Source of the DNA: Eledone cirrhosa
Lineage: Eukaryota
Assembly (NCBI GenBank): GCA_964016885.1
Contig: OZ024748.1
Coordinates: forward strand, 59,892,001 to 59,956,000
Length of the DNA: 64,000 nucleotides
Direction: 5' to 3'
A program made the position numbers and the translations under genes. Of this stretch, positions 13,849-56,648 are shown piece by piece. The notes under the pieces were generated by a model. It saw only the letters and a list, made by a program, of their open reading frames with translations, did no database searches and had not been told where the DNA came from. Position 1 is the stretch's first letter. Every line of letters begins with the position of its first letter.

Positions 13849-13985
13849 AACGAAGGAAATGTGGTTAGGAACCAGGTGGACCATAACGCACCAAAGTACT
13901 CAATACTTAGGGTAGTAGAGTGGGTGATAGGAATAAGTAAGACCCCGACGGCTGAGCTCAGCCGTCGGTGTCTTACTTGTTCCTA
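13849..13985 (-). mobile_element. Family E fold-back element
   Basis: Tail plus short inverted arms folded at the internal palindrome TGAGCTCA; flanked by (TA)n. Confidence 0.85.
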
Positions 13986-14491
13986 TGTATATATATATGT
14001 ATATGTATATATATATATATATATATATATATATAATATATATATATATATATATATGTATATATATATGTATATGTATATATGTATATATATATATGTA
14101 TATATGTATATATATATATGTGTGTATATATTATATATATATGTATATATGTATAAATATATATATGTATATGTATATATATATGTATATGTATATATAT
14201 ATGTATATGTATATATATAGACATATATATATATATACATATATACCTATATACATATATATATATATGTATATATATATACATATATATATACATATAC
14301 ATATATATATACATATACATATATATATATTTATACATATATACATATATATATATAATATATACACACATATATATATATATATACATATATACATATA
14401 TATATATACATATATACATATATATATATATATATACATATATATGTATATATGTATATATATATATGTCTATGTATATATATATATATAT

Positions 14492-14612
14492 CATCATCAT
14501 TCATCATCATCATTTTACGTCCGCTTTTCCCTGCTTGCAAGGGTGGGACAGGAACTGATTCTGGCTTTATTTCTACAGCTGGATGCCCTTCCTAATGTAA
14601 ATCGCCCCAAAG
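14492..14612 (-). mobile_element. 3' end of an RTE-related SINE with (TGA)n tail
   Basis: Minus strand reads GGAAGGGCATCCAGCTGTAGAAA...GCGGACGTAAAATGATGATGA. Confidence 0.6.
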
Positions 14613-14707
14613 GTGATCTTTGCATTTCCTCCACGCATTTTCTCCAGATTCTTCTGTCATTGTACCCACTAAAAATATATTCATATTTATTATTAATCGT
14701 CAAAAGA

Positions 14708-15300
14708 GTGGTGGATTGGCAGTATCGGTAGAGCGTCAGACACTCTGGTTTGCTTCATAGAGTTATGACCCTTTATGTTCTAGGTTTAGATACTGCCGAG
14801 GTTAGCTTTGCCTTTCATCCTTACAGGGTTGATAAAACAGAGTACCAGTAATGCACTGGGGGTCGGTTTAATCGATTTCCCACTTCTCCCCAAATTGCTG
14901 GCCTTGTGCTAATAGTAGATATAATTATTAATCGTAAAAAATGGAAATGGATTGGCAGTATCGGTAGAGCGTCGGACAACATGCTTTTCAGCATAGAGTT
15001 ACGTCCCTTTCCGTTCTGCATTCATATTCCAATGAGGTTAGCTTTGTCATTCATCCATACGTGGTTACGGGGGTGGATAAAATAAAGTATCAGTAATGCA
15101 CTGGGGTCAATTTAATCGACTTTCCTCTCCCACCCCCCAAATTGTTGGCCTGTGTGTGTGTGTGTGTGTGTGTGTGTGTCTAAATGAGAAACCATTATTA
15201 ATCACCAAAAATGCGGTGGATTTTCAGAATCGGTAGAGCATCGGAGAATTTGCTATTTGGTATTTAGTTATGTCACATTTCATTCTCTGATCAAATCCCA
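14708..15300 (+). mobile_element. Head-to-tail array of Nin-like tRNA SINEs (2 full + 1 partial)
   Basis: Repeated GGATTGGCAGTATCGGTAGAGCGTC-type heads at about 14713, 14949 and 15218. Confidence 0.85.
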
Positions 15301-15702
15301 CCTAAAATATCAGAAGGGACTCCTTATATTCTGCGTCAGTGTCATCATATAGTTCCCCCCCCTTCATCTATCTCTTTGTCTGTCTGACTCTCTCTCTCTC
15401 CCTCCCTCCGTCTCTCTTCCTCCGTCTCTCTCTTTCTCCGTCTCTCTCTCTCTCTCTCTCTCTATCTATCTATCTATCTATCTATCTCTCCCTCTTTCCG
15501 TCTCCCCCTCTCTCTATCTATTTATCTCTCTCTTTCCGTCTCCCTTTCTCTCTATTTCTCCCCCCATCCTCTATCTCTGATTGAATGGAAGTTAGCAAGA
15601 GATATAAAGGAAGTATAATCTCCAATACTCAACTGGTTTATTTAACAATTTGTAATTATTTACTGACCACACTGAATACATACAATAGTCTATAACTTTG
15701 CC

Positions 15703-15847
15703 AGTTAATCCGTATGGTGAGCAAATGGGTCCCACGTGCTGGCCTCCCCACAGCCCCGGTGGACAGGATGGAGAAGGCATTTCCTCGGGAGATAAGATAT
15801 TGGAGCGCAAATAATCAACTTTCACCTTCTCCCAAATTCCTTGCTTT
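15703..15847 (-). CDS. Possible coding exon of an unidentified host gene
   Basis: Unique, GC-richer island with acceptor ttgacag and open frame KQGIWEKVKVDYLRSNILSPEEMPSPSCPPGLWGGQHVGPICSPYGLT. Plus-strand frames are also open, so strand is uncertain. Confidence 0.3.
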
Positions 15848-52525: not shown

Positions 52526-53774
52526 ATACATATATATATATATATATATATGTATATATATATGTATATATATATATATATATATATATATATATATATA
52601 TATATATATATATATATATATATATATATATATATATATATATATATATATATATATATATATATATATTTATGTATACTAGAACATGGCACTAAAGCGC
52701 TATCTAAGGTTTCAATGTCCAATTAAGACCATTTCTCAATGTTGTAAGGGCAATCAAATTTCTGGTTTAGGCCTGCTGCCTGATGACTAACAAATTTCAT
52801 CGCTCATACAGTCAGGTGAGATGGTCATAATTGGACTCTGAAAACGTAAATACCGCTTTTGATCCGTGTATAACCATGAATACTATAATATAATATCTCA
52901 GCTCACATTCCAGTTTGAAAACTGTTTTCTCTCTGTCCTTTTTCACATCCATTGATTGTTTTACTACGTATACATATAAATACATACATACATACATACA
53001 TATATACATACATACATACATGCATACACACATACACATACACACACACGCATATATATATATATACATATACACACACACATATATATATATATATATA
53101 TATATATATATATATATATATATATATATATATATATATATATATATATTTATATCTATACACAGACACACACACCCACACACATACACACACATATATA
53201 TATATATCTGTATGTATCTGTGTGTATGTGTGTGTTTATATGTACGCACAGATGCGTACACGGAAGTGTTGATAGATATCAAACACTTGTCTATCAACAA
53301 TTTTTACACTTACATTAAACGACATTACTTTACTTTCCACAAAGTACGATATGCCTCATAAGTAATACCACAACGTAACAATATACACTCCATCGTAAAT
53401 TATTTGGATAAATGTTACCGATGAAGCTCAAAATCTCAGTACATCTTTCTGTAGTACATGGATAGAACTCCTTTCTCATTCGTCAATCCACTGCTAGAAC
53501 TAGAAACAGAGATACAAATTCAGCAATATTAGTTTCGTATTCAGGTTAACTAGGGTGTGACCATCGCCATATATTTTTGCTTACTCGCATATTTACAACA
53601 ACATTTTGTATACACATTCATTAGCCATGTAAACACCCATTTTCGATTCCTTATTATTTATCAATATGATGAGCAATACTCCGTCGGTATCGATGATGGA
53701 ACATCTGTTGTTTGATCAACTGAAAATCCGTCTCGTGAATTATGCGCTTAAATCGTTTCTCGCGACCCAACGTC

Positions 53775-53895
53775 GCTCACAAGCTTTGGGTCGATTTGAG
53801 GCTGTAGTAAAAAAACCTTGCACACGTTTCCACGCTGTGGATTAGAACCGACAACTTCAAGATTGCGAAACAAAATACTTATCCTGTCAGCCCTC
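53775..53895 (-). mobile_element. Old SINE remnant (related pieces at about 36870-36950 and 49490-49580)
   Basis: Shared degenerate GTCG...GAGGCTATAG..GAAGACAC..GC..AAGG motif plus a tRNA-like head. Confidence 0.4.
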
Positions 53896-55142
53896 AGGCA
53901 TCTACCCCTATCGGTGTACATTTACAAATACAAAACATTTGTTATTTAGATTCGCAATATGCCAGCTAGATACGAATAACCACTGTTAAATCCCCAAGAT
54001 GGAAGGTTTCAATGTCAACGTTTATAGAAAACATATATTTCTGTAAGTTATACAAAGTTAAGTGAAGGTAAAGAAAAGCCGACCTCCATTAGATTCGACG
54101 ATGAGTGTATATTCTACACGTTAAGTCAACAGAATGGCGTACTCGTTAAATTAACGGGTAAAATGATTGTGTATTCTGCAGACAAGTGTACTCTTTGACC
54201 TCTCATAAGATATATCGAAATATAAAATAAGAAAAAATAAGAAGGATTTATCTTAATTGTCTGAATGGAACAATTCCAAATGTTTATTTGGAAGAACTAT
54301 AAAGACCTGTGAAACATGCATTTTAATAGCATAAAACACAAATAATAAAACGTGATAAATATTCTTTTCCATTATTATAAGAAATATGAAGATTGTTTCG
54401 GTTTTTCTTTGGGGATAGTGGTGGTTAAATAAGAGAAAGGAATTTATATAAATATACATACATATATATATATATGTATATGTATATATATATATATGTA
54501 TATATGTATATATATATATATATGTGTGTATATATGTATATATATATATATATATATATATATATATATATATATATATATATATATGTATGTATATATA
54601 TATATGTATATATATATATGTATATATATATATATATATATGTATATATGTATATATACATATATACTTATATACATATATATATATATACATATATATG
54701 TATATATATTATACATATATACATATATATACATATATATGTATATATATATATATATGTATATATATATATGTGTATATATATATATGTATATATATAT
54801 ATGTATATATACATAGAGGTATATATATATATACATATATATATATAAGTATATATACATAGAGGTATATACATATATTTATATGTATATATATAAATAT
54901 ATATATATTTTATATATATATATATACATATATATATATATATGCATATATAAATATACATATATATATATACATATATAAATATACATATATATATATA
55001 CATATATATATATAATTATGCATATATATATATGTATATGTATATGTGTACACACACACACACACACACACACACACATATATATATATATATATATATA
55101 TATATATATATATATATATGTAATCTGAGTTTTTCGAATATT

Positions 55143-55333
55143 AATAATTGTTTCTACTTTAGGCACAAGGCCAGCAATTACCCAGTGCATTACTGGTACT
55201 TTATTTTATCGACCCCGTAAGGATGAAAGGCAAAGTCAACCTCGGCGGGATTTGAACTCAGATCATAAAGGGACGTAACTATGCTGGAAAGCATGGCGTC
55301 CAACCCTCTACCAATACTGCCAATCCACCACCC
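55143..55333 (-). mobile_element. Nin-like tRNA SINE, short-tail subfamily
   Basis: Full head, core and tail, flanked by a direct repeat TTTTCGAATATTAATAAT (TSD-like). Confidence 0.9.
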
Positions 55334-56429
55334 TTTTCGAATATTAATAATAACATTCGATTTGTTTGCAATTATGCAAACAAGCCTCAATTCTATAGCC
55401 ATGTCAGTAGAATGAACACTTCATTCTTGCTCTTGTGTTGGCATGCGAACAGAACATATATATATCTATATATATATATATATATATATATATATATATA
55501 TATATATTTATATATATATATATATATATATACATATATATAAATATATTTATAAATATACATTTGTGTGCAGGTGTGTGTTCGTGTGTAGAACACAAAG
55601 AAAACGTGAGAGTAAATAAAATAACAAATGCATATGTTAATATACACTGAGACAATTAATTTTACTAATATTTTTTTTTTTTTTTTTTGTTCTTATATAC
55701 TATTTATTTCATGTAAAATATGAAAGTACATTGTATGGAGAAGACGGAAGACATATTCTTCACTATATTGTATGGCTGACGGGGAACAGAGTGTAAGAGA
55801 CATTATACATTATATATATATATATATATATTTATATATATATATATATATATATATATATATATATATATATATATATAAATATATATATGTATATATA
55901 TATATGTGTGTGTGAGTGTGTGTATGTGTGCGTGTGTGAGTGTGTTTATATATATATATATATATATATATATATATATATATATAAATATACGTATATA
56001 CCTATATATATACATATATATATATGAATATGTAAATATATATATATGTATATGTAGGTATATATATATATATACATATAAATATATATATATACATATA
56101 TACGTATATATATATATATAGAGAGTATCTTATTTTGTTATTTATATATATATATATATATATATATATATATATATATATATATATATATATATATATA
56201 TATATATACATGTATATATATATATGTAATTATATATATATATAGAGAGAGCATCTTATTTTGTTATATATATATATATATATATACATGTATATGTATA
56301 TGTAATTATATATATATATATATATATATATATATATATATATATATATATATATATATGTACCTGTACATGTAGATGTAAATATATGTATATATATGTA
56401 TATGCATGTATATGTAAATATATATATAT

Positions 56430-56648
56430 AACGAAGGAAATGTGGTAAGGAACCAGGTGGATCATAGCGCACCAAAGTACTCAATACTTAGGGTAGTAGA
56501 GTGGGTAATAGGAACGAGTAGGACCCCGACGGCTGAGCTCAAGCCATTTCGACGGCTAATTCTGGACTAAAAATTTTTTTTTTTTTTCTATTAGTCCAGA
56601 ATTAGCCGTCGAAACGGCTTGAGCTCAGCCGTCGGGGCCTACTCGTTC
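56430..56648 (-). mobile_element. Family E fold-back element, full length
   Basis: Arms fold at GGACTAA-[A/T run]-TTAGTCC. Confidence 0.9.

What the first reader, a model, noticed from the sequence alone, without database searches (positions are those of the whole stretch)
13849..56648. Family E: ~140-nt mini-element with a fixed 5' end and variable fold-back junctions
Seen: six independent copies plus a diverged one and a duplicate. All end TTCCTTCGTTA-(TA)n at one side and, nearly always, GTTCCTA-(TA)n at the other. Three copies (18049, 29062, 56580) fold at the same point, AGTCCAGAATT, each with a different filler (C; TTT; a long A/T run). Others fold earlier, e.g. at the palindrome TGAGCTCA (13955). 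Both arms of one copy share private variants (ACCAGTAAG/CAGCTG in 17991). The body can form two mutually exclusive hairpins (GCCGT-CGAA-ACGGC versus ACGGCT-TGAGCTC-AGCCGT). Inference: a discrete non-autonomous RNA whose second arm is synthesised at insertion, with non-templated additions.
Basis: partly seen in the sequence, partly recalled or inferred. Interest (0 to 1): 0.7.

Follow-up and report, generated by a model that had tools for sequence, protein, structure and literature searches.

The report
Twin-copied Penelope retroelement leader stubs
These small mirror-image repeats are the front ends of a very abundant protein-coding Penelope-like jumping gene, not a separate mini-element, and their joints suggest that each likely formed when both cut DNA strands copied the same RNA back to its capped or self-cut start, which offers a testable answer to how this class builds its inverted ends.

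Summary
The copies are real, but not a discrete element. The 140-nt unit is identical to the leader of an intact Hydra-clade Penelope-like element (PLE; 719-aa ORF) in the same genome. At least 3,249 copies run upstream of AGTCC with shared sequence; about 20,000 end in (TA)n at +58 or +138. Pairs are nearly always one short plus one tailed arm (63 of 100 tail-anchored copies; 1 tail+tail). The fixed end likely is a capped transcription start: a one-base filler is G/C at 292 loci, A/T at 54. A second fold class (376 loci) sits at the predicted hammerhead cut, and mixed junctions are rare (123 at most), so both arms likely copy one RNA. Non-overlapping arms (6 of 63) argue against one arm being copied from the other. 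'Private' variants are subfamily markers. No RNA data were available. The layout is published; I found the mechanism in no paper searched. This scan reached the same reading before, on other DNA of this and other genomes.

The parts
13848..13986 (-). Head-to-head copy; tailed arm on - strand, short arm on +, joined on the palindromic stem III loop (TGAGCTCA, 13953-13960)
17991..18048 (-). Short arm (+1 to +58) of the 17991 copy
18049..18049 (.). One-base filler C, read as a G before +1 of the short arm; likely copied from an RNA cap (inferred)
   Evidence: G/C 292 versus A/T 54 loci; this subfamily has T at that place in long copies
18050..18189 (+). Tailed arm (+1 to +140), identical to the leader of the full-length element L051:5848-5987
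18060..18095 (+). 3' half of a type I hammerhead fold (3' strand of stem II, GAAA, stem III, GUC, 3' strand of stem I); predicted cut between 18090 and 18091
18116..18139 (+). Bulged hairpin (4 bp, 2-nt bulge, 4 bp) 8 nt past the short-arm end; a twin lies at +145 to +166, past the tail end, only in ORF-bearing copies; candidate start signal (inferred)
   Evidence: lead from earlier notes
18266..18420 (+). Second copy in the same TA run; short arm about +37 to +58, tailed arm from +7; other subfamily
19692..19875 (-). Copy with tailed arm from +13 and short arm from +5 (short arm holds bases that the tailed arm lacks)
24565..24748 (-). Duplicate of the 19692 copy, inside a 4.7-kb duplication across an N gap
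29003..29205 (+). Copy with short arm to +1; tailed arm preceded by ATTTT (upstream start at -3 plus one T)
51174..51287 (+). Old, diverged copy (85% over +55 to +141) with a short-arm remnant
56429..56648 (-). Copy with both arms to +1 and a 24-nt A/T-rich filler (56569-56592)
7923..7942 (+).

Best explanation
The copies are head-to-head fragments of the leader (pseudo-LTR plus 80-nt tail) of a protein-coding Hydra-clade Penelope-like retroelement that inserts in (TA)n, and each likely forms when the two cut target strands prime reverse transcription on one RNA, at +58 and at +138, run back to the RNA's 5' end and are joined there. Shown: identity with the full-length element, the two fixed ends, the one-short-one-tailed pairing, the clustering of folds at -3 to +8 and at +42, the extra G at +1, subfamily concordance of the arms. 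Inferred: +1 (and -3) is a capped polymerase II start lying inside loop II of the hammerhead, so RNA that starts there carries only half a ribozyme; +42 is the 5' end left by ribozyme cleavage of read-through RNA; the later-running enzyme displaces the first cDNA or stalls; the two cDNA 3' ends are joined bluntly, by microhomology or with short fillers; the bulged hairpins past each end position the enzyme. The stubs are likely dead-end products: they lack the upstream TATA-like stretch and the second hairpin.
For: Full-length parent: L051 holds an inverted tailed copy, then pLTR-ORF-pLTR ending at the short-arm site; window 18050-18189 equals its +1 to +140. ORF has the Hydra motifs and its model best matches telomerase RT. 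Ends: 21,662 tail ends and 18,015 short ends on (TA)n, 303 tail ends running into the ORF. Pairing: 63 of 100 tail-anchored copies have a short-arm partner, 1 a tailed partner; 23 of 30 short-anchored copies have a tailed partner, 0 a short one. Starts: 60 of 100 tailed arms start at -3 to +8, 5 run upstream; depth rises about eightfold at this point in an independent DNA run. Cap: G precedes A+1 in 19 of 72 arms at 50 listed junctions (my hand count), while 34 of 34 long copies have no G there; single filler G/C 292, A/T 54; the G lies on the short arm at 8 and on the other arm at 7 of 15 fetched loci, in four subfamilies. Control: at the +42 class the single filler is A/T at 9 and G/C at 1 of 50 listed loci (hand count). 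One RNA: 35 of 50 listed loci have both arms at +42 (376 loci in all), whereas mixed +42/+1 junctions number at most 123 (about 31 of 100 listed stop at +42) against roughly 1,650 expected if each arm took its own RNA (my estimate). Arms agree at subfamily sites (0-3 discordant of 74-80, against 19-53 expected). In vitro, a Poseidon PLE protein cuts and extends both strands from two internal RNA sites that bound the tail (PMC11167929).
Against: No RNA evidence for the start, cap or cleavage. The TATA-like stretch at -29 varies between subfamilies and is often not canonical. The hammerhead shows no covariation (0 pairs changed on both sides, 18 sequences 93% alike) and 6 of 18 copies pair C3 with A8. 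An extra C could also be a cap-independent addition. 32 of 100 tailed arms have no inverted partner within reach. Arm concordance cannot tell one RNA from two RNAs of one locus. A shared 5' end is also expected from fold-back copying. In the Poseidon study the two strands showed no difference in start site and no reads began at the ribozyme site. Samples are the first matches on one contig and favour young copies.
Confidence: 0.75

Rival explanations
1. One reading: a discrete, self-spreading non-autonomous 140-nt RNA, mobilised in trans.
For: Short copies outnumber ORF-bearing ones about 70 to 1 (21,662 versus 303); sharp 5' edge.
Against: Unit identical to the autonomous leader; subfamily haplotypes match those of long copies; 38 of 42 junction centres distinct; the same G junction recurs in both orientations and four subfamilies; stubs lack the upstream promoter-like stretch.
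Confidence: 0.07
2. Fold-back or self-priming: the tailed cDNA folds on itself and templates the second arm, which is trimmed at the TA-like site at +59 (close to the self-priming idea in PMC3846280 and the nuclease resolution of the tail in PMC8557442).
For: Explains shared 5' ends, subfamily concordance and the one-sided tail; 43 of 63 pairs start within 4 nt of each other; folds on internal palindromes occur (13955).
Against: 6 of 63 pairs have no overlap; the short arm reaches further 5' in 14 pairs and the tailed arm in 6; the extra G sits on the short arm in 8 of 15 loci; 8 of 50 junctions have no loop at all. Later deletions at the palindrome centre could mimic some of this.
Confidence: 0.12
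3. Twin priming on two separate RNAs held by a protein dimer or by the palindromic stem III loop.
For: Avoids strand displacement; a PLE protein dimer is predicted; palindromic loop present.
Against: Mixed +42/+1 junctions are more than tenfold rarer than expected for independent RNAs; short+short and tail+tail pairs nearly absent.
Confidence: 0.08
4. The 5' edge is an enzyme stall or a splice acceptor, not a transcription start.
For: The bases around +1 read like a 3' splice site (pyrimidines then YAG ending at +2); an A/T tract lies upstream.
Against: Splicing would start arms at +3 (6 of 100), but many keep +1, +2 or -3; a stall does not predict a G-specific addition that is absent at +42.
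Confidence: 0.06
5. Assembly or library artefact (fold-back chimeras).
For: Palindromes in TA repeats are hard to assemble; the window holds a duplication across an N gap.
Against: Fixed asymmetric ends, unique flanks on both sides, independent decay of the two arms; same edges in DNA runs X1 and X4 (one study, which may include the assembly's own sample).
Confidence: 0.01

Closest known systems
Hydra clade of C-terminal EN+ Penelope-like elements (Craig et al. 2021, PMC8557442; includes Hydra-1_Obim)
   Same: Single ORF with RT and C-terminal GIY-YIG; RWx, DKT, CxCX5C linker, no CCHH, CxxC and CxH motifs; (TA)n target; hammerhead; inverted 5'-truncated copy noted for Penelope-13_HM.
   Different: Unit about 3.5 kb (Hydra 'generally <3 kb'); RWR for RWK; hammerhead of other sequence than the one tabulated for Hydra-1_oBim, with U3-A8 core, long loop II and long stem III; tail 80 nt instead of 30-40. 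No tree with curated Hydra proteins was built.
Inverted pLTR plus one-sided tail of EN+ PLEs (D. virilis Penelope, Adineta Pen families; PMC3846280, PMC8557442)
   Same: Head-to-head inverted copy, tail on one arm only, junction palindromes; TATA and Inr-like motifs noted in a pLTR.
   Different: Here reduced to about 200 bp, in tens of thousands of copies, with base-level junction marks that argue against the self-priming on an antisense template proposed in PMC3846280.
Poseidon PAc in vitro system (Frangieh et al. 2024, PMC11167929)
   Same: Two internal RT start sites bounding the tail; both DNA strands cut and extended; AT-rich target.
   Different: Other clade; no strand bias in start site was seen there, and no sign of ribozyme-cut templates; here pairing is nearly strictly one site per strand and a fold class sits at the cut site.
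L1 twin priming and the cap-derived extra G (as described in PMC11702581)
   Same: Second target end primes on the RNA; inverted arm; microhomology joints; extra G at full-length 5' ends.
   Different: L1 arms cover adjacent parts of the RNA; here they mostly overlap and both run to the 5' end from fixed internal sites.
Non-LTR retrozymes (bioRxiv 10.64898/2026.07.22.740005) and MITE-like hairpin elements
   Same: Small, non-coding, PLE-derived or palindromic.
   Different: Retrozymes are head-to-tail tandems with complete ribozymes; these stubs are head-to-head with half ribozymes and variable centres. MITE features are from recall.

Membership tests
EN+ Penelope-like element (parent) | Single ORF with telomerase-like RT and GIY-YIG nuclease | tested here: met
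   719-aa ORF; model pLDDT 90.8, best fold match TERT E 5.4e-9; VIY...YIG motif at the C terminus. Pfam gave 0 families for the protein itself and GIY-YIG for 1 of 57 aligned members; no PDB sequence match.
EN+ Penelope-like element (parent) | Partial tandem forming pLTRs, inverted 5' copy, one-sided tail | tested here: met
   L051; tandem arrays with about 3,540-nt spacing; pairing counts.
EN+ Penelope-like element (parent) | Type I hammerhead motif in the pLTR | tested here: met
   Minimum-energy fold of -52 to +50 is the three-way junction (-23.2 kcal/mol); 97.8% of cells paired in 18 copies but no covariation; U3-A8 core variant is described for PLEs. Rfam gave no hammerhead among the 150 of 170 rows shown for window 13500-30000, which holds only half motifs.
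Hydra clade | RWK motif and DKT in place of DKG | tested here: met
   RWR and DKT read from the translation against the description.
Hydra clade | CxCX5C linker; CCHH absent; CxxC and CxH around the conserved E and N | tested here: met
   Read by eye; only one Cys between the GIY- and YIG-like motifs.
Hydra clade | Insertion in (TA)n | tested here: met
Hydra clade | Phylogenetic placement with curated Hydra proteins | not tested
   Curated sequences lie in a paper supplement and were not brought into the tools.
Neptune / Nematis / Penelope-Poseidon clades | CCHH motif in the nuclease | tested here: not met
Non-LTR retrozyme | Head-to-tail tandem units each with a complete hammerhead | tested here: not met
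   Window copies are head-to-head and lack the 5' half.
Discrete non-autonomous element (SINE- or MITE-like) | Fixed structure inherited from copy to copy, distinct from the autonomous element | tested here: not met
   38 of 42 junction centres distinct; unit identical to the autonomous leader.
Discrete non-autonomous element (SINE- or MITE-like) | Own short transcript | not testable with these tools
   No RNA holder listed.

The most novel reading that the evidence does not exclude
These stubs are a natural record of the PLE insertion reaction: one RNA is copied twice by an asymmetric complex, from two hairpin-marked sites on opposite target strands, with strand displacement, to either its cap or its ribozyme-cut end. 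That would explain the inverted pLTR and the one-sided tail of all EN+ PLEs, and give genomic evidence that a PLE hammerhead cuts in vivo and that cut RNA is used as template.
Probability: 0.55. Interest if true: 0.72.

Novelty: new member of a known kind. Interest (0 to 1): 0.5.

Why it matters
How PLEs make inverted repeats and tails is stated to be open (PMC8557442 passages; PMC11167929). This family gives thousands of junctions that fix the RNA start, the two enzyme start sites and a ribozyme-cut class to the base, so the model can be tested with an intact 719-aa protein and a 170-nt RNA. For annotation, such hairpins should be filed as PLE insertion products and not as MITEs or microRNA-like hairpins.

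Tried and rejected
DNA similarity search of the own genome returned nothing because common words are skipped; patterns were used instead. Rfam: only below-threshold hairpin matches. Pfam and PDB sequence searches did not name the ORF. The protein atlas could not take the sequence. Sequencing runs: no RNA holder listed, which says nothing on expression; runs X5 and X6 had 3 contigs each and are not used as evidence. Hammerhead covariation was uninformative. My first reading as Neptune clade was dropped. The ungapped junction walk misplaced some starts and was replaced; there, a few '-3' starts are chance extensions of +1 starts, which leaves the -3 to +8 bin unchanged. The 131 pairs (104 short+tail, 0 short+short, 1 tail+tail, 26 with other ends) include repeats of one locus and pattern-selected loci, so one search is used for counts. 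Gene conversion between arms is rejected as the cause of concordance because rare variants are not shared. The extra-G passage in PMC10018344 concerns library artefacts and was not used. A sequence look-up in earlier findings gave nothing. The host species was not determined.
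Full report
Observation. I number the unit from the A of AGTCC (+1). Each young copy has a tailed arm ending at +138/+140 on (TA)n and an inverted short arm ending at +58/+60 on (TA)n. A 30-mer of the head has 20,180 exact matches in the 3.0-Gb genome, control 0, so this is a high-copy repeat. The 24565 copy lies in a 4.7-kb duplication (98% identity) across a 200-N gap.

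Parent element. Among the first 30 loci many ran upstream of +1 with shared sequence; genome-wide at least 3,249 do (the pattern misses one subfamily). Locus L051 holds an inverted tailed copy followed by pLTR, a 719-aa ORF starting at +232, and a second pLTR that stops at the short-arm end. Window 18050-18189 is identical to its +1 to +140. Tail ends on TA number 21,662, short ends on TA 18,015, and tail ends that run on into the ORF 303, some in tandem arrays of about 3,540 nt. The protein has 2,054 relatives among 7,996 scored candidates, mostly unnamed. Pfam and PDB sequence searches did not name it, but its model (pLDDT 90.8) best matches telomerase RT. Its motifs (RWR, DKT, CxCX5C, no CCHH, CxxC, CxH, TA target) are those given for the Hydra clade. 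No tree was built.

Ribozyme. In long copies, -49 to +46 folds as a type I hammerhead with a U3-A8 core, a long loop II that contains +1, and a stem III closed by the palindrome TGAGCTCA; the predicted cut is after +41. The U3-A8 variant, palindromic loop III and paired motifs on opposite strands are described for PLEs (PMC4209133). Pairs are kept in 97.8% of cells, without covariation, in 18 close copies; 6 of them have C3 with A8.

Pairing and fold points. I fetched all of the first 100 exact tail ends on contig C1 and the first 30 of the short ends. Of the 100 tailed arms, 60 start at -3 to +8, 5 run upstream, 21 start at +11 to +61 and 14 beyond +61; 63 have a short-arm partner, 1 a tailed partner, 4 a damaged partner and 32 none. 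Of the 30 short arms, 23 have a tailed partner, 0 a short one, 3 another and 4 none. In the 63 pairs the starts lie within 4 nt in 43, the short arm reaches further in 14, the tailed arm in 6, and 6 pairs do not overlap at all. Contigs of DNA run X1 show the same edges: depth rises about eightfold at +1 and falls after +140, with TA loose ends at +61 and +141.

Arm identity. In 80 pairs with both arms covering most of +12 to +57 (of 103 usable), arms differ by 3.2% within and 8.6% between copies. At six subfamily sites 0-3 pairs are discordant against 19-53 expected at random, while at other sites discordance equals the random expectation. Junction centres are nearly all different (38 of 42), so each copy is built anew.

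What the fixed end is. 2,616 loci have both arms reaching +2 with at most 8 nt between. In the 50 listed, by my hand count, 72 arms keep A+1 and 19 of them have a G before it; long copies have no G there (34 of 34). A one-base filler is G/C at 292 loci and A/T at 54. At 15 fetched loci of the 292 the G lies on the short arm in 8 and on the other arm in 7, in four subfamilies; 2 of the 15 belong to the subfamily whose template has C there. An extra G marks cap copying in L1 (PMC11702581 passage). A TATA-like stretch begins at -29 but varies between subfamilies. Starts at -3, T-runs longer than the template's and short templated inserts explain the other fillers, including those at 29062 and 56580; slippage or A-addition is inferred. 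I read +1 and -3 as capped starts; no RNA data were available.

A second fold class. 376 loci fold between +36 and +43; in 35 of the 50 listed both arms start at +42, the predicted ribozyme product, and the single filler is A/T in 9 and G/C in 1 (hand count). Junctions that join an arm near +42 to an arm at +1 number 123 at most, and only about 31 of the 100 listed stop at +42; independent RNAs would give roughly 1,650 (twice the root of 263 times 2,616; my estimate). Both arms thus share one 5' end. Fold-back copying predicts that too, but not the non-overlapping pairs, the longer short arms, the G on the short arm or the 8 of 50 loop-less junctions.

Start signals. Following a lead from earlier notes of this scan I found a 4-bp, 2-nt-bulge, 4-bp hairpin at +67 to +90 and a twin at +145 to +166, 8 and 6 nt past the two ends. 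Common variants fall in the loops (88 and 29 copies). RNAfold gives the second as minimum-energy fold, but prefers another fold for the first, so their role is inferred.

Comparison and verdict. The layout (inverted copy, one-sided tail, TA target, hammerhead) is published for EN+ PLEs, and two internal start sites with extension of both strands were shown in vitro for a Poseidon element. Self-priming on an antisense template was proposed for the palindromes; the data here argue against it. Searches turned up no paper with same-RNA twin priming, cap-derived G or a cut-site fold class for PLEs; the library lacks most subscription papers. Earlier unreviewed notes of this scan reached the same reading for other families and pieces; they are not independent support. 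Papers seen: PMC8557442 passages, section 11, supplement search and part 2 of 59; PMC11167929 and PMC4209133 parts 1-2 of 4; bioRxiv 2026.07.22.740005 part 1 of 5; PMC3846280, PMC13282606, PMC11702581, PMC10018344 passages; PMC2377424 abstract and section 16. Verdict: a new family of a known kind; interest 0.5, resting on the mechanism that the junctions make testable.

Noticed in passing
window 19001-23673 and 23874-28615: About 4.7-kb direct duplication (98% identity) on either side of a 200-N gap (23674-23873); probably a haplotype overlap at a scaffold join or a recent tandem duplication.
   Followed up: partly
L184 (G000:C2:356.03 Mb): Head-to-tail array of about seven 299-nt units made of the leader, the ORF start and the ribozyme 5' half, with part of loop II deleted; retrozyme-like derivative of the same family.
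   Followed up: partly
L103:1313-2039: Insertion with an inverted short arm, two 257-nt head-to-tail units starting at -2 and a final tailed arm; suggests template jumps or a small circular RNA.
   Followed up: partly
L051:156-3127: The full-length element sits beside two ORF pieces of another, LINE-like reverse-transcriptase element (type recalled as RTE-like, not tested).
   Followed up: no
L003 flanks: The flanks beyond both TA runs are reverse complements of each other for over 60 nt; perhaps ends of another TA-targeting family.
   Followed up: no
L018 about 1611-1659; L037 about 3086-3270: Older, more diverged relatives of the head that also fold near the position equivalent to +1.
   Followed up: no
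window 22640-22833 and 27578-27773; 30214-30273: Other long inverted repeats unrelated to this family (weak Rfam hairpin scores only).
   Followed up: no
window 14700-16050: Several copies of a SINE-like repeat with a tRNA-like head (recalled as cephalopod-type, not tested).
   Followed up: no
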